From NCBI RefSeq assembly GCF_009914755.1, contig NC_060928.1: a DNA stretch of 64,000 nt; one strand, written 5' to 3'. Positions 21,768-62,150 of this stretch are shown here, piece after piece. The DNA is from the human T2T-CHM13v2.0 reference genome, Homo sapiens. Made by a program: the position numbers and the translations under genes. Below the pieces are notes generated by a model. The model made no database searches. It worked only from the letters and a program-made list of their open reading frames with translations, and had not been told where the DNA came from. Numbering within the stretch: position 1 is the stretch's first letter; every line of letters starts with the position of its first letter.

Positions 21768-24331
21768 TGTATTATTCTGTTTTCATGATGCCAAAAAAGA
21801 CATATCTGAGACTGGGCAATTTACAAAAGAGGTTTAATGCACTTACAGTTTCACATGGCTGCGAAGGCCTCAGAATCATGGTGGAAGGCAATGAGGAGCA
21901 ATTAACATCTTATGTGCATGGCAGCAGGCAAAGAGAGAGCTTGTGCAGGGAACCCCCCATTTTTAAAACCCTCAGATCTTGTGAGACCCATTCACCATCA
22001 CAAGAATAGCACAGGAAAGACCTGTCCCCATAATTCAGTCATCTCCCACCAGGTCCCTCCCACAACATGTGGGAATTATGGGAGCCACCAGGTGAGATTT
22101 GGGTTAGGACACAGAGCCAAACCATATAATTCCACCCTTGGCCCCTCCCAAATCTCATATCTTTACATTTTAAAACCAATTATGCCTTCCCAACAGTCCC
22201 CAAAGTCTCAACTCATTTCAGCATTAACTCAAAAGTCCAGAGTTCAAAGTCTCATCTAAGACAAGGCAAGTCCCTTCTGCCTATAAACCTGTAAAATCAA
22301 AAACAAGTTAGTTACTTCCTAGATACAATAGGGGTACAGGAATTGGGTAAATACAGCAATTCCAAATGGGAGAAACTGACGAAAACAAAGGAGCTACAGG
22401 CCCCCAAGAAGGGACAGGCCCTGCAAGTCCAAACTCCAGCAGGGCAGTCAAATCTTAAAGCTCCAAAATGATCTCCTTGAATCCACGTCTCACATCCAGA
22501 TCACCCTGATGCAAGAGGAGGGTTCCCATGGTCCTGGGCAGCTCTATCCCTATGGCTTTGCAGGGTACAGCCTCCCTTCTGGCTGTCTTCAAGCCCTGGC
22601 ATTGAGTGTCTGTGGCTTTTCCAGGCACACGGTGCAAACTGTTGGTGGATCTACCATTCTGGGATCTGAAGGATGGTGGCCATCTTCTCACAGCTCTACT
22701 AGGCAGTGCCGCAGCAGGGACTCTGTGTGGGGGCTCTGACTCCACATTTCCCTTCTGTACTGCCCTAGCAAAGGTTCTCCATGAGGGCCCCACCCCTGCA
22801 GCAAACTTCTGCCTGGGCATTCACGTGTTTCCATACATCTTCTGAAATCTAGGTGGAGGTTCCCAAACCTCAATTCTTGACTTTTGTGCACTCACAGGCT
22901 CAACACTACAAGCTGACAAGGGTTGAGGCTTGCACCCTCCAAAGCCACAGCCTGAGCTCTGCATTGGCCCCTTTCAGCCACGGCTGGAGAGGCTAAGATG
23001 CAGGGCACCAAGTCCCTAGGCTGCACCCAACATGGGTACCCTGGGCCCGGCCCATGAAACCACTTTTTCCTCCTAGGCCTCCAGGCCTGTGATGGGAGGG
23101 GCTGCTGTGAAGACCTCTGACATGCCCTGGAGATATTTTCTCCATTGTCTTGGGGAAGAACATTTGGCTTCTCGTTACTTATGCATATGTCTGCAACGGG
23201 CTTGAATTTCTCCTCAGAAAATGGGATTTTTTTTTTCTATCACATTGTCAGGCTGCAAATCTTCTGAACTTTTATGCTCTGCTTCCCTTATAAAACTGAA
23301 TGCCTTTAACAGCACCAAAGTCTTGAATGCTTTGCTGCTTAGAAATTTCTTCCATCAGATACCCTAAATCATCTCTCTCAAGTTCAAACTTCCACAAATC
23401 TCTGAGACAGGGGCAAAATGCCACCACTCTCTTTGTTAAGAGATAACAAGAGTCACCTTTGCTGCAGTTCCCAACAAGTTCCACATTTCCATCTGAGACC
23501 ACCTCAGCCTGGACTTTGTTGTTCATATCACTATCAGCATTTTGGGCAAAGCCATTCAACAAGTTTCTAGAAAGTTTCAAAATTTCCCACATTTTTCTGT
23601 CTTTTTTTTTTTTGAGACAGAGTCTCGCTCTGTTGCCCAGGCTGGAGTGCAGTGGTGGTGTGATCTTGGCTCGTGGCAAGCTCCACCTCCCAAGTTCATG
23701 CCATTCTCCTGCCTCAGCCTCCCAAGTAGCTGGGACTACAGGCGCCCACCACCATGCCTGGCTAATTTTGTTGTATTTTTAGTAGAGACGGGGTTTCACT
23801 GTGTTAGCCAGGATGGTCTCAATCTCCTGACCTCATGATCCGCCTGCCTTGGCCTTCCAAAGTGCTGGGAGCCACCGCACCCGGCCTTTTCTGTCTTCTT
23901 CTAAGCCCTACAAATTGTTCCAACATCTGCCTGTTACCCATTTCTACTTCACTCTACTGGTATCAATTTTCTATATTAGTCCACTTTCATGCTACTGATA
24001 AAGACATACCTGAGACTGGGCAATTTACAAAAGAAAGAGGTTTAATGCACTTATGGTTCCACATGGCTGGGGAGGCCTCACAATCATGGCAGAAGGCAAG
24101 GAGGAGCAAGTCACATCTTATGTGGATGGCAGGAGGCAAAGAGAGAGCTTGTGCAGGGCAATTCCCATTTTTAAAACTATTGGATCTCATGAGACCCATT
24201 CACTATCACAACAACAGCACAGGATGCCTCCAATATTCAGTCATCTCCCACCAGGCCCCTCCCACAACATGTGGGAATTATGGGAGCTACAAGATGAGAT
24301 TTTGGTGGGGACACACAGCCAAACCATATCA
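21768..24331 (-). mobile_element. THE1 (A/B-like) provirus: LTR 21768-22129, internal 22130-23971, LTR 23972-24331
   Basis: Two similar LTRs flank THE1-int ('ttccacccttggcccctcccaaatctcat' to 'ctactggtatcaatttt'); TSD catgg/cttgg. Confidence 0.95.
23602..23886 (-). mobile_element. AluY inserted in THE1-int
   Basis: 'gcaagctccacc...ttcatgccattctcc' and 'gttagccaggatggtctcaatctcc'; TSD ttttctgtctt; lacks about 12 bp at 'gtgctggga|gccacc'. Confidence 0.95.
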
Positions 24332-58519: not shown

Positions 58520-59140
58520 GCACATAAAAACAGTGGTTGGAAAGAACCAGGCTTGGTGTCAGGAGAATGGAGTCAGTCCCCTCTCCCCATCATGAGCTAG
58601 GTGACCATGGGTGAGTAAATTAACCTCTCTGAGCCTTGTAATCCTGAAATATCTATAAAACTGGGAAAATAAGGCCTGTTATGCCACTCTCGACGAATTT
58701 AAAAGCTAAAAATGCATGAAAATATAAGCTAGTGTTATTATTTTGAACTGCTGCTATGCTGAGAAAATTCCTAAAAATTCTGGGAGCATCGACAATGATT
58801 TTTAGCCCATGCCAAGCAATCTGAAACTTAGGCTGGAAAAATATTTTGAAATTATAAAAGACTGTGCCAATTACATTTATGATAAATTTAAGGCATCTCA
58901 GTGGGGAAAACTGTCATTTATTGAGTGTTTATTATGGGTCTGACCCTGTGCTCAGGGCTTTACATACATTACTCGAATTTTAATCCAGTGAAGTTGGGTG
59001 ATATTCCAGCCCCATTCTTCTCAAGGGAGAAGTCAGGCTCAGAGAGGCTGGATTGCACATCCATGATCTTCTTGGTGGGAGACAGAAGAGCTAGGATCTA
59101 ACCCAGGAAGTCAGGATCCAGAAACTGCTCACTTCACTGA
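58520..59140. mobile_element. Two MIRs (+ ~58520-58740; - ~58910-59140)
   Basis: 'gagctaggtgaccatgggtgagtaaattaacctctctgagcct'; 'catttattgagtgtttattatgggtctgaccctgtgctcagggctttacatacatt...aggctcagagagg'. Confidence 0.75.
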
Positions 59141-59339
59141 CACTAGGCTCTTACATGAAAGACGAAGATAAACAATAGCAACAGAAGACAATGGCTGCAG
59201 AAGCCTTATGCAAACCCTCACGACCAGTGTTGATCACATAAATAAAAAAATCACTTGAGGCAGTGAATCATAAAAACGATACACATAAACTTTAACTGTT
59301 TTATTTAAAATATATAAATATCCACTCGTTTCATAGAAC

Positions 59340-61150
59340 CATTATTTGAAAGTTAAGAAAAAGAACATGGTTTTTGAAGTGTACTTTTGAAGCATGTACA
59401 TTTGTTATGCTGTAATATAGTTGGCTGCTGATTCAATAAAACAAAACTCTACCCAGGGCAGCTTTGGCTTCTAAATGTGAAGATTTGGGCTCTGGACTTG
59501 GTATATCACACTTCCTTTCCCCTCTTTTCTTTATTTTTTGATTTATGTATTTCTATCATGGCCTTAATGAATCTTCCCTGGCCCTTAGTATATATTGCAT
59601 AAATAGGAATCATTAGTTCATTGTCATATATTATCTTTTTTTAAATCACTGGAAACTCCAATTTTGTCTGGGTTCAGTTACCAAACTGATTTAACTCTTA
59701 ATCAATCTCTTGTAGTCCAAAATGTTTCTAATGTTGTCAACTTCAGGCAATATTTTTTTTTTCTCTAAGACTTAGTAAATGTCAAACTGGGAATTTCACT
59801 CCCCACTAAACGCTACATGAAAAGAAAATAACCTTTTAATGTTAATTATTTTTAATGTATGGTGCCTATATATTCTTATCTTCTATTTTTTCCTAAAATG
59901 AAACTCCAAAATTATTTTTAAAACATTTTATAGCTCATTGATCCATAACTTGGAACAAGGACGTTGCATTCTGTTATAAAAACCTGGCATTTATTTAAAT
60001 CACTTTCTTTACATTATTCATAACCAAAACATGGAGCATTATTTTAGACCAAAGGCCTTCAAAGTTTTTGCCAGAAATACAAGACAAATTTTACATGACA
60101 GCTAGGAATTTTATATCATGTATACGTACATACATACATGCTCACACACATACACACAAAAATGTATAATAAAACAATTTTCATAAAATACCTTTACAGC
60201 ATATAATGCACACTGACATTTTCTATTCTGTTTTATTCAATTTCATTTCATTTTTGAAAATCCTTTATCCCAACTCAGTAGATTTATTTCATGACCCACC
60301 AAAGAATCAAAATCTACAATTTGAAAAACATTGATAAAGAAAGCACAGGCTTTTCAGACGGCTATTTTCTTCAAGTGCTTCTTCACAACATGTATACATT
60401 CATGGGAAAGAAATCAACTTATAGAATAACTCAGTGTCTGTCCATGCTGATTTTTACGAAGAATACTTATCTTGTAAAAACAAAAAATTCATATCTCTTA
60501 AATCTTGAAGACATTTTTGTTGGCCAATAATAAAAGTCAAAATTTGAAATTCCGCTTGTATTGCTACAGGCAGCTGCTGCACATCTTTGCCTGGATTTTG
60601 TGTAAACTGGTAGCACTTGCTTTACCTTTGCACCATGCTTTTCTAGAAAATATCTTGTAATTTAGAACTGCTTTCATTCTATTGGAGAGTTATTCCCTAA
60701 TCAATTTTTTCCTTTTGATAAGTGACTTTAACTCCTCTGTAAATTTTTAAGCAGCAGATTGATTTGAGGGCAGAGGCAACTTCTGCCCTCCAAGACCCAA
60801 TACCTGGACACCCTGGCTTTTCCTATATTCAAGCCATCCATCGGTTGCTACAGAGCTGTCAGTGCTTCCCATCTTTTGATGCAGGGCCAAGGCCTTTTTT
60901 GTAACTATCCAACTACTGATTGGCATTCTGTGTATTCTTTCTTGCATAAGCCACATCAATAATATATCAGTCCTAGTCATTAGTTTCAGTTTCTTTAAAG
61001 TAGAGCAAGAATTTAAAGACACTTGGAAAGCCATGAAATTATAGAAACTTTCTAGATGACTATATGTTCCCCCAAAACTTTTACAATTAACTCACCGTAG
61101 TTCTTCTCTTTTTTTAGCAACATTCCTTTAAATCCAAATTATTCAATGTA
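59340..61150 (-). pseudogene. Degenerate pogo/Tigger (CENP-B/JERKY-like) DDE transposase with many stops and frameshifts
   Basis: Hand translation, in order: ORF 60747-61034 LLMWLMQERIHRMPISSWIVTKKALALHQK..ATDGWL (CENP-B HTH); AACSNTSG 60551-60574; KSAWTDTELFYK 60418-60454; NNAP ~60031-60043; INARFL*QNATSLFQVMDQ ~59938-59994; EIPSLTFTKS*R..ILPE ~59742-59800; PKSSHLEAKAAL 59454-59489. Confidence 0.85.
60050..60333. mobile_element. hAT-Charlie-like MITE inserted in the transposase
   Basis: Breaks transposase colinearity; CA-rich core, 'tgacattttctattctgttttatt', end 'atttcatgacccacc...aatttgaaaaacattg'. Confidence 0.65.
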
Positions 61151-61151
61151 G

Positions 61152-61257
61152 TTTTTTTCTCAACTTTTATTTTAAGTTCCAGGGTACATGTGCAGGATGT
61201 GCAGGTGTGTTACATAGATGATCTGCACAGCAAACCACCATGGCACATGTTTGCCTC
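61152..61257 (-). mobile_element. Very short L1PA 3' end with 5' inversion
   Basis: Antisense 'aacttttattttaagttccagggtacatgtgcaggatgtgcaggtgtgttacatag' followed by sense 'atgatctgcacagcaaaccaccatggcacatgtttgcct'. Confidence 0.8.
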
Positions 61258-61461
<204 letters not shown>

Positions 61462-61519
61462 TTAAGAGAGCTTCCACTGTCCCATAGCAGAGGTCAAAGT
61501 CCAGCGGGAAGCTGTCAGG

Positions 61520-62150
61520 AAAGTATCACGGTCTGGGGCCTCCTGAAAGTAGACCCCAAGGCAAGAATTACAGTGCTGTCACTTCAATTATTACGTACAA
61601 GCCCGGGGTGCTGAGGGCTAAGGGGAAAGGTGAAATGAGGTAAGGAAAGAGACTGAGCAACACAGTTCAATGCAACAGCTACCACATCACAATTAGCAAC
61701 AAAGAGATACGGCTGGCAATTCAAGAGACATGTTTACTCACCACACAAGATCTCTCTGGGATGTTTGGAAACAGGAACTGCACAATCTCACCACAACCCA
61801 AAAGGGGCAAAAAGAGTTGGAATTTATGGACCTAGCTTCCCCTTCCATCTCCTGATTCCTGTTGTGAAAAGATCACCCTACAGCGAGTTGATTGCCCCAC
61901 ACTTCAGATTACACCTTCCAGTCTCTTGGCATCCAATCAAGGACTCAGATACCATATCCCATGGTGGGACTTTTAAGTTCTAATCTTAAAAGTCTGGAAG
62001 CAGAGGGGCTTGCTTGTAGGGCATGGAGACAATGCAGTTCAGAGCTCTAACTGTGAGTGCCAGCCAGCTCAGGGAGTTCATAAGGATGCCAGAAAATGAG
62101 GTGACAGCATTCTCCAGAAGGTGTGCAGAAGCATTAGAATAAGAGTGGTT
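61520..62150 (-). mobile_element. Possible old ERVL-type LTR
   Basis: 'ggggcctcctgaaagtagaccccaaggcaagaattacagtgc' resembles the antisense end of LTR16/33/67-type LTRs. Confidence 0.35.

What the first reader, a model, noticed from the sequence alone, without database searches (positions are those of the whole stretch)
59195..61155. Fossil of an apparently autonomous Tigger15-like transposon with a nearly complete DDE transposase
Seen: on the minus strand, pogo/Tigger transposase motifs occur in the correct order over ~1.8 kb. They run from the HTH region (..SLNSCSTLKK..LMWLMQER..PISSW..KKALALHQK..ATDGWL) through AACSNTSG, KSAWTD, the second catalytic motif (..NNAP), FL*QNATSLFQVMDQ (cf. FLPPNxTSLxQPMDQ) and EIPSLTFTKS*R..ILPE, to the C-terminal KSSHLEAKAAL, followed by a TIR-like end. 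Only one 95-aa piece appears in the ORF track. Recalled knowledge: the HTH part and the last ~140 bp resemble Tigger15a, a short deletion derivative that stops just after 'KALALHQKI'. Inference: ~59340-60870 would be catalytic and C-terminal sequence of the parental autonomous element absent from that consensus, useful for reconstructing an ancient transposase related to the JRK/JRKL/TIGD family.
Basis: partly seen in the sequence, partly recalled or inferred. Interest (0 to 1): 0.8.

Follow-up and report, generated by a model that had tools for sequence, protein, structure and literature searches.

The report
Decayed long copy of Tigger transposon
This stretch is the worn-out remains of an ancient cut-and-paste transposon that still carries traces of its own transposase gene, whereas every other copy sampled in the genome is a short version with that gene deleted; it is an ordinary genomic fossil of modest use to people who catalogue repeats.

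Summary
All 13 motif strings checked lie on the minus strand in the stated order.

- **Protein remnants beat chance.** A frameshift-tolerant alignment to a profile of 14 human pogo-derived ORFs was reached by 0 of 200 shuffles for the HTH part (z 8.3), the DDE N-part (z 5.7) and the DDE C-part (z 7.9). 0 of 170 real window tiles reached the DDE score.
- **Pfam is weaker.** Its best matches are HTH_Tnp_Tc5 (16.9 bits) and DDE_1 (15.0 bits), both under their cut-offs.
- **Deletion junction confirmed.** A DNA profile built from 20 other genomic copies hits the window in two adjacent pieces, 61098-60868 and 59331-59196.

Corrections to the finding:
- About 265-290 bp of the 5' end, TIR included, are missing; homology stops at 61155 against a poly(A).
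- An unrelated repeat sits at 60155-60344.
- The C-terminal motif is at chance level (44 of 200).
- Candidate D1 and D2 residues are substituted.

No second long copy was found. The name "Tigger15a" and absence from Dfam could not be tested. This is an ordinary fossil of low interest.

The parts
60868..61155 (-). 5' part shared with the short (internally deleted) family. It holds the degenerate N-terminal coding region and the first two thirds of the HTH_Tnp_Tc5 domain. Homology starts abruptly at 61155.
   Evidence: The family profile from 20 other loci hits 61098-60868 at E 2.2e-46. Profiles extended upstream hit 61155-61000, 61155-61017 and 61155-60982, starting at profile position 266 of 439, 260 of 410 and 201 of 400. 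All 11 hits to this part end at or before 60868.
59332..60867 (-). Internal 1,536 bp absent from all 20 short copies sampled. It holds the rest of the HTH domain, DDE remnants, a nested repeat and an undiagnosable C-terminal/3' region.
   Evidence: The flanks are adjacent in the family profile, at positions 311 and 313. No other copy of this DNA was found in the genome. None of the 17 non-self hits lies here, apart from the 6 that fall in the nested repeat.
60747..61091 (-). 114-aa stop-to-stop open frame (95 aa from its first Met) carrying the HTH_Tnp_Tc5 remnant. It crosses the deletion junction in frame.
   Evidence: PF03221 at 16.9 bits, E 0.006, cut-off 22.2, aa 43-88. tblastn E 6e-6 to 3.5e-5 against four human pogo-derived ORFs.
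60636..60761 (-). Linker and candidate first catalytic region (NRMKAVL aligned to n-a-d-e-T-g-l). Met sits at the D1 position; two in-frame stops.
   Evidence: Chain segment, profile 146-187, 18.0 bits.
60424..60598 (-). DDE N-part remnants in two other frames: KSRQRCAAAACSNTSG (frame 2) and KYSS*KSAWTDTELF (frame 0).
   Evidence: Chain segments of 15.9 and 17.8 bits. DDE N-part z 5.7, reached by 0 of 200 shuffles. tblastn pieces of the L021 and L019 ORFs on 60595-60424.
60155..60344 (.). Nested unrelated interspersed repeat (minimum extent) splitting the DDE domain between profile positions ~278 and ~305.
   Evidence: 6 other genomic copies. The profile built from them hits 60335-60185 at E 2.6e-29; single-sequence matches span 60344-60155. 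Leaving out 60101-60344 changes the DDE score only from 81.8 to 80.1.
59911..60043 (-). DDE C-part: candidate second catalytic position (NNAP, Asn in place of Asp, not significant alone) and the FL*QNATSLFQVMDQ*AIKCFKNN block, which retains the third Asp.
   Evidence: Chain segment, profile 305-332, 30.9 bits. Pfam DDE_1 at 15.0 bits, E 0.019, cut-off 22, profile 102-140 of 177. tblastn 44.8% identity over 29 aa to the L020 ORF. DDE C-part z 7.9. The D2-D3 candidate positions lie 100 nt apart.
59196..59331 (-). 3' part shared with the short family; the element's 3' end lies near 59196-59215.
   Evidence: Family profile positions 313-455, E 2.6e-9. Pairwise match to L008 over 106 nt at 70% identity.
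61156..61470 (.). Younger retroelement block abutting the truncated 5' end. Its poly(A) sits next to 61155. From memory I read it as a LINE-1 3' end plus a partial Alu.
   Evidence: 61446-61259 matches multiple places in 11 of the 16 loci compared at 74-87% identity, and 61216-61165 matches L028 at 85%. The names are recalled, not tested.

Best explanation
Window 61155-59196 (minus strand) is a dead, 5'-truncated copy of the long, transposase-encoding form of an ancient pogo/Tigger-type DNA transposon.

In life (inferred from the family's known biology) the element encoded one protein of about 500 aa. That protein had N-terminal helix-turn-helix DNA-binding domains that recognise the element's terminal inverted repeats, and a DDE_1 (D,D,D) catalytic domain that cuts the element out and pastes it into a TA site.

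An internal deletion of about 1.25 kb of element sequence produced a short non-coding derivative that kept both ends. This is the 1,536 bp now lying between 60868 and 59331, less the repeat that inserted later. The short derivative was mobilised in trans and became the common form; 20 of 20 other copies sampled are of this kind.

The window copy has since decayed neutrally to the same degree as the short copies. It also took an unrelated repeat insertion inside the DDE domain and lost its 5' end next to a retroelement insertion. It has no function now.
For: Shown by tool results:
1. The short-family profile, built without the window, hits the window in two pieces adjacent in the profile and 1,536 bp apart in the window. 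In one search, 18 of 20 short copies align across the junction in one piece. The other two carry Alu-like insertions and resume after them.
2. The coding frame and the Pfam HTH_Tnp_Tc5 match run across the 5' junction without a break.
3. HTH and DDE remnants lie colinear with pogo-derived proteins. tblastn gives E 6e-6 and 1e-5. Chain scores are reached by 0 of 200 shuffles for HTH, DDE N-part and DDE C-part, and by 0 of 170 real tiles. Pfam's best matches for the read-through pieces are HTH_Tnp_Tc5 and DDE_1.
4. The candidate D2 and D3 positions are 100 nt apart, about 33 codons. This fits the DD29-36D range given for Tigger in PMC7386202 (passages).
5. Divergence from the family consensus is K2P 0.26 (5' part) and 0.33 (3' part). 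The 20 short copies give 0.21-0.43.
6. Estimated original length is about 2 kb: 1,960 bp, plus about 265-290 bp missing, minus a nested repeat of at least 190 bp. This lies within the 1,018-4,525 bp range reported for complete Tigger elements in PMC9219625 (passages).

Inferred rather than shown: trans-mobilisation of the short form, the order of events, and past autonomy.
Against: - Both Pfam domain matches are below the curated cut-offs (16.9 against 22.2 bits; 15.0 against 22 bits). No CENP-B_N match was found.
- The sub-ranges used in the shuffle tests were chosen after I had seen the first alignment.
- The D1 and D2 candidate residues are Met and Asn. The D2 stretch alone scores -2.5 bits.
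- The C-terminal quarter is not distinguishable from chance (44 of 200 shuffles).
- No TIR pair or TA duplication can be shown, because the 5' end is absent from the window.
- Only one long copy exists among those sampled, so the internal sequence has no second witness. Searches for one have low power, since copies are only about 70-78% identical to each other.
- The search for homologous proteins returned nothing for the 114-aa ORF.
Confidence: 0.85

Rival explanations
1. A short copy of the family into which a fragment of a different pogo/Tigger element later inserted. On this reading the internal 1.5 kb is not the family's own coding sequence.
For: Only one long copy was seen. Nested insertions do occur here. 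The 3' junction at 59331 has no coding continuity that could be checked.
Against: The reading frame and the HTH_Tnp_Tc5 domain continue across the 5' junction in one stop-free, ungapped segment at the right profile position. A foreign fragment would have to land in frame at exactly the homologous residue. The internal part also ends exactly where the short family's 3' part begins (profile 311/313).
Confidence: 0.05
2. A processed pseudogene of a host pogo-derived gene of the TIGD/JRK/JRKL type.
For: The best single-protein chain scores are to the intact ORFs at C11:96.40 Mb (z 7.5) and C4:92.44 Mb (z 6.5). From recalled map positions I take these to be JRKL and TIGD2.
Against: Amino-acid identity is only 22-31% to every intact human pogo-derived ORF tested. 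That is far too low for a pseudogene of any of them at this nucleotide divergence. Both ends are shared with a dispersed repeat family of at least 20 copies. No poly(A) tail lies at the 3' end.
Confidence: 0.02
3. The DDE-like motifs in the internal segment are chance resemblances in AT-rich DNA. Only the HTH part would then be real.
For: Pfam DDE_1 is sub-threshold at 15.0 bits, E 0.019. Four of the six internal stop-free pieces (30-64 aa) scanned and two of the read-through pieces gave no Pfam match; the best match of one read-through piece was an unrelated family (BCL9, 13.8 bits). The D1 and D2 residues are not Asp.
Against: The DDE N-part and C-part were each reached by 0 of 200 shuffles (z 5.7 and 7.9). 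0 of 170 real tiles reached the DDE score. The reversed profile and the opposite strand score at background level. The pieces are colinear with the protein and on the same strand as the HTH part.
Confidence: 0.05
4. This rival concerns novelty only: the internal segment is already covered by a catalogued full-length Tigger model in a current Dfam or Repbase release, under this or another name.
For: Dfam has grown greatly since 2018. I could not query it.
Against: The Repbase list of human Mariner/Tc1 consensus sequences in PMC5753468 (passages) has Tigger15a and no Tigger15. A whole-word full-text search for 'Tigger15' found 0 papers. No other genomic copy of the internal DNA was found from which a consensus could have been built.
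Confidence: 0.3

Closest known systems
Tigger15a (Repbase/Dfam non-autonomous Tigger family).
   Same: It has a 5' part with a degenerate N-terminal ORF that breaks off just after the K-A-L-A-L-x-Q-K-I stretch, joined directly to a 3' part of about 140 bp. The window shares both parts.
   Different: The window carries 1,536 extra bases between the two parts. Identity of the rebuilt family with the database entry was not tested, because no Dfam or Repbase sequence was on hand.
Autonomous/non-autonomous Tigger pairs, such as TIGGER7 with MER44A-D (PMC5753468, passages)
   Same: The same relation holds: a rare coding element and abundant internally deleted derivatives that keep the ends.
   Different: Here the coding partner is known from a single decayed, 5'-truncated copy rather than from a consensus.
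Intact human pogo-derived ORFs at G000 C11:96.40 Mb and C4:92.44 Mb (taken from recalled positions to be JRKL and TIGD2; classed as Tigger-derived in PMC7386202)
   Same: The same domain order, HTH_Tnp_Tc5 then DDE_1. These give the best single-protein chain scores (z 7.5 and 6.5). tblastn gives E 6e-6 and 1e-5.
   Different: Only 23-25% identity. The ORFs at C8:143.81 Mb and C20:3.82 Mb match the HTH part about as well (26% and 31%), so no special kinship is shown. Those genes are intact and conserved host genes; this is a dead transposon copy.
Tigger1-type copies and the intact ORF at C2:233.04 Mb (taken to be TIGD1)
   Same: The FLP-x-N-x-TS-x-LQPMDQ block is 44.8% identical over 29 aa.
   Different: The HTH part matches poorly (E 0.61) and the overall chain z is 5.1. 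There is no DNA-level similarity to the Tigger copies examined, beyond 53-65 nt at the PMDQ motif.

Membership tests
pogo/Tigger DNA transposon (DDxD) | HTH_Tnp_Tc5 DNA-binding domain | tested here: met
   Pfam PF03221 is the top match at 16.9-17.0 bits (E 0.006), which is under the 22.2-bit cut-off. tblastn to four intact human pogo-derived ORFs gives E 6e-6 to 3.5e-5. Own profile gives z 8.3, reached by 0 of 200 shuffles. I count it as met as a decayed remnant.
pogo/Tigger DNA transposon (DDxD) | CENP-B_N / psq-type N-terminal HTH | tested here: inconclusive
   Pfam gives no match on the read-through of 61157-60984. Own-profile segments there score only 9-12 bits. The first ~10 codons are missing.
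pogo/Tigger DNA transposon (DDxD) | DDE_1 catalytic domain | tested here: met
   Pfam PF03184 is the only match of the read-through piece 60000-59851, at 15.0 bits and E 0.019, under the 22-bit cut-off. Own profile: the N-part (z 5.7) and C-part (z 7.9) were each reached by 0 of 200 shuffles, and 0 of 170 real tiles reached the DDE score. I count it as met as remnants only.
pogo/Tigger DNA transposon (DDxD) | Catalytic triad D, D(29-36)D (PMC7386202) | tested here: inconclusive
   The third Asp is retained in VMDQ. The candidate second position is Asn (NNAP), 100 nt or about 33 codons upstream, which is within the range. The candidate first position is Met. The D2 stretch is not significant alone. 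Substitutions are expected in a copy about 26-33% diverged.
pogo/Tigger DNA transposon (DDxD) | Short terminal inverted repeats flanked by a TA duplication (PMC9219625) | tested here: inconclusive
   The 5' end is absent from the window and no inverted pair was found. A search for TIRs in 7 short copies gave only weak 10-13-nt pairs, E 0.02-0.5. The 3' end is homologous to the family's 3' end.
Tigger15a (database family) | Similarity to the Repbase/Dfam consensus | not testable with these tools
   No Dfam, Repbase or RepeatMasker was available. Only the recalled description could be compared with the rebuilt family.
Autonomous (self-mobilising) element | Uninterrupted transposase ORF and both termini | tested here: not met
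   At least 5 in-frame stops and 2 frame changes within the six strongest aligned segments. A nested repeat lies in the DDE domain. About 265-290 bp of the 5' end are missing. It is a fossil of a coding element, not an autonomous element.

The most novel reading that the evidence does not exclude
This locus is the only surviving copy in the human genome of the coding progenitor of a catalogued non-autonomous Tigger family. On this reading its ~1.25 kb of otherwise unrecorded internal sequence is the only human sequence so far that records that transposase. With orthologues and copies from other mammals, the transposase could be placed among the Tigger lineages, including those that gave rise to the JRKL/TIGD2-type host genes.
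Probability: 0.3. Interest if true: 0.35.

Novelty: new member of a known kind. Interest (0 to 1): 0.2.

Why it matters
If the internal 1.25 kb is not yet in the repeat libraries, it would let curators extend a non-autonomous model to its coding parent. It would also allow about 1.3 kb of currently unexplained sequence here to be annotated, and the family to be placed in the pogo/Tigger tree. It has no bearing on gene function at this locus, where no gene or functional element is annotated. It does not change what is known about how such elements work.

Tried and rejected
- **Whole-frame translations to Pfam** failed because of the stop codons. I then used stop-free pieces and read-through pieces with X at stops.
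- **Inverted repeats in 58900-61700:** 20 pairs, none plausible as TIRs.
- **TIR search in 7 short copies** with both end regions: only weak pairs. I could fix the family's exact termini only to within about 20 nt.
- **Upstream extension from single copies** found only the seeds themselves.
- **Second long copy:**
  - DNA searches with 60345-60760 and 59195-60100 returned only the window itself.
  - The 64-aa ORF gave one weak hit (E 0.025), and that locus shows no family DNA.
  - The read-through DDE piece gave three hits at E 0.4-1. Those loci do not match the family profiles, with best E values of 0.21 and 0.44.
- **The search for homologous proteins** with the 114-aa ORF against longer proteins: 206 candidates, none at E <= 0.001.
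- **An ORF picked from L025** turned out to be Alu-derived. I ignored its many window hits.
- **The processed-pseudogene and chance readings** were rejected, as set out under Rival explanations.
Full report
**What is in the sequence**

One search places 13 of 13 in the stated order, from SLNSCSTLKK at 61019-60990 to KSSHLEAKAAL at 59486-59454. The strings are spread over all three frames. The only long open frame is 114 aa from stop to stop (61091-60747).

**Is it more than chance?**

Pfam gives HTH_Tnp_Tc5 as the best match for the 114-aa frame: 16.9 bits, E 0.006, cut-off 22.2. Four of the five other stop-free pieces from the internal segment scanned (31-64 aa) gave nothing. Whole-frame translations were rejected because of their stop codons. 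I therefore read pieces through with X at the stops. The piece 60000-59851 then gives DDE_1 as its only match: 15.0 bits, E 0.019, cut-off 22, profile positions 102-140 of 177. The N-terminal piece gives no CENP-B_N match. Both Pfam matches are below the curated cut-offs, so I made an independent test.

The window's own genome is searchable. A DDE_1 search in it returned intact pogo-derived ORFs, and I fetched more of them.

- tblastn of these ORFs against the whole 64-kb window puts the L019 ORF (aa 92-247) on 60962-60543 at E 6e-6.
- The L021 ORF falls on three colinear pieces, 60965-60693, 60595-60533 and 60531-60424, at E 1e-5.
- The L022 and L024 ORFs match the HTH part at E 1.9e-5 and 3.5e-5.
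- The L020 ORF (aa 358-386) matches 59994-59908 at 44.8% identity, E 0.07.
- The hits of the L025 ORF in that table are Alu-derived, and I ignored them.

From 14 ORFs I built a 533-position profile. I aligned it to the DNA with a chaining algorithm that allows frame changes and jumps. Results, each against 200 dinucleotide-preserving shuffles:

| Region tested | Observed (bits) | Shuffles | z | Shuffles reaching it |
|---|---|---|---|---|
| Whole interval | 135.8 | 72.7 +/- 5.2 | 12.2 | 0 of 200 |
| HTH part | 51.6 | 21.8 +/- 3.6 | 8.3 | 0 of 200 |
| DDE N-part, 60345-60760 | 41.5 | 22.7 +/- 3.3 | 5.7 | 0 of 200 |
| DDE C-part, 59700-60110 | 44.3 | 19.3 +/- 3.2 | 7.9 | 0 of 200 |
| C-terminal tail, 59195-59700 | 15.4 | 13.6 +/- 2.3 | 0.8 | 44 of 200 |

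The reversed profile and the opposite strand score at background level. As a harder control, I scored 170 real tiles of the same length from the rest of the window, on both strands. They reach at most 60.4, against 81.8 for the DDE region, so 0 of 170 reach it.

Two caveats apply. I chose the sub-ranges after seeing the first alignment. The 'NNAP' stretch taken alone scores -2.5 bits.

**The short family and the deletion junction**

A DNA search of the genome with the whole interval gave 17 non-self hits.

- 11 cover only query positions 69-288, which is window 61087-60868.
- 6 cover query positions 821-996, which is window 60335-60160.
- None covers the rest.

Protein and DNA searches added more copies, for a total of 20 distinct loci. 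A profile of the 5' part found all 20 of 20.

I then built a profile seeded from one short copy and iterated it on those 20 loci, with the window left out. It hits the window twice:

- positions 76-311 on 61098-60868, E 2.2e-46;
- positions 313-455 on 59331-59196, E 2.6e-9.

The two pieces are adjacent in the family and 1,536 bp apart in the window. In one search, 18 of 20 copies align across the junction in a single piece. The other two are interrupted by Alu-like insertions and resume afterwards. One copy was also checked pairwise: in L008 the two parts lie about 43 bp apart.

The internal DNA is the native continuation of the element, not a foreign insert. One ungapped, stop-free segment of the profile alignment crosses the 5' junction (profile 78-114 on 60968-60858, 35.8 bits). 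The Pfam HTH_Tnp_Tc5 match also straddles the junction, at about aa 75 of the ORF.

**Corrections to the finding**

1. *The 5' end is missing.* Family profiles extended upstream match the window only from 61155 downwards. The matches start at profile position 266 of 439, 260 of 410 and 201 of 400 for three seeds, and nothing upstream of the retroelement block matches. Conservation among the short copies runs a further ~25 nt beyond those profiles. About 265-290 bp are therefore absent, including the 5' TIR and, judging from the family consensus frame, about 10 codons. The break abuts an A-run. From memory I read the sequence next to it as a LINE-1 3' end followed by a partial Alu. Its high-copy nature shows, but the names were not tested.
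2. *A nested repeat splits the DDE domain.* 60155-60344 at least is an unrelated interspersed repeat with 6 other copies found. A profile of them hits 60335-60185 at E 2.6e-29. Removing 60101-60344 changes the DDE score only from 81.8 to 80.1.
3. *The coding sequence is badly decayed.* The six strongest aligned segments (12.9-35.8 bits) contain 5 in-frame stops and use all three frames. The candidate D1 residue is Met and the candidate D2 residue is Asn. The third Asp is kept in VMDQ. The D2-D3 candidate positions are 100 nt apart, about 33 codons. This fits the DD29-36D range given for Tigger in PMC7386202 (passages read).
4. *No TIR pair or TA duplication can be shown*.

**Age and uniqueness**

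Against the family consensus the window's two shared parts are 78% and 73% identical (K2P 0.26 and 0.33). The 20 short copies range from 68 to 82% (K2P 0.21-0.43), although they contributed to that consensus and the window did not. The long copy is thus as old as the short ones. By inference from usual mammalian neutral rates, that means roughly a hundred million years or more.

No second long copy was found.

- The internal DNA finds only itself.
- The 64-aa ORF and the read-through DDE piece find only weak hits, at loci that do not match the family profiles.
- The large protein database gave nothing for the 114-aa ORF.

These searches have limited power, because copies are only about 70-78% identical to one another and the genome search scores only its best candidates.

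**Comparison with what is known**

Complete Tigger elements are described as about 2.8 kb (range 1,018-4,525 bp). They have one ORF of about 492 aa, TIRs of 8-33 bp and TA duplications (PMC9219625, passages). [quoted passage not shown]

The fossil fits this plan. Its estimated original length is about 2 kb, and its coding span is about 475 codons once the nested repeat is removed.

Single-protein chain scores are highest for the ORFs at C11:96.40 Mb (z 7.5) and C4:92.44 Mb (z 6.5). From recalled positions I take these to be JRKL and TIGD2. Identity is only 23-25%, much the same as to two other pogo-derived ORFs, so no special kinship is shown.

The Repbase list of human Mariner/Tc1 consensus sequences in PMC5753468 (passages) holds Tigger15a but no Tigger15. 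A whole-word full-text search for 'Tigger15' found 0 papers. A search for 'Tigger15a' found 12 papers, which I saw only as a listing, except for PMC5753468. I could not query Dfam or Repbase, and I opened no supplements. The family name and the claim that the internal part is uncatalogued therefore remain untested.

**Verdict**

The element is a decayed, 5'-truncated copy of the long form of an ancient pogo/Tigger family, interrupted by a nested repeat. The common form of that family is an internal-deletion derivative. This is a normal kind of genomic fossil. Its only possible value is as the single human witness of the family's transposase. Interest is low.

Noticed in passing
window 60155-60344 (perhaps ~60050-60350): An unrelated interspersed repeat is nested in the transposase remnant, with a short impure GT/AT-rich run at about 60110-60160. 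At least 6 other copies exist in the genome. I could not name the family without a repeat library.
   Followed up: partly
window 61156-61470: A retroelement block abuts the truncated 5' end. From memory I read it as a rearranged LINE-1 3' end with poly(A), followed by a partial Alu in the opposite orientation. The transposon's 5' end is not on the far side of the block, so the insertion seems to have come with a deletion or a rearrangement.
   Followed up: partly
L049 (G000 C23:17.55 Mb), locus coordinates about 1500-2100: A second, partial copy of the short family lies directly beside the first in inverted, tail-to-tail orientation.
   Followed up: no
L029 (G000 C11:74,426,335-74,427,519, + strand): [quoted passage not shown] It has no DDE part in the alignment, so it is probably a host gene derived from a pogo DNA-binding domain.
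   Followed up: no
window 52648-52818 (+) and 22049-22261 (+): Weak tblastn matches to pogo-derived ORFs (E 0.03 and 0.085). They may be chance or other Tigger debris.
   Followed up: no
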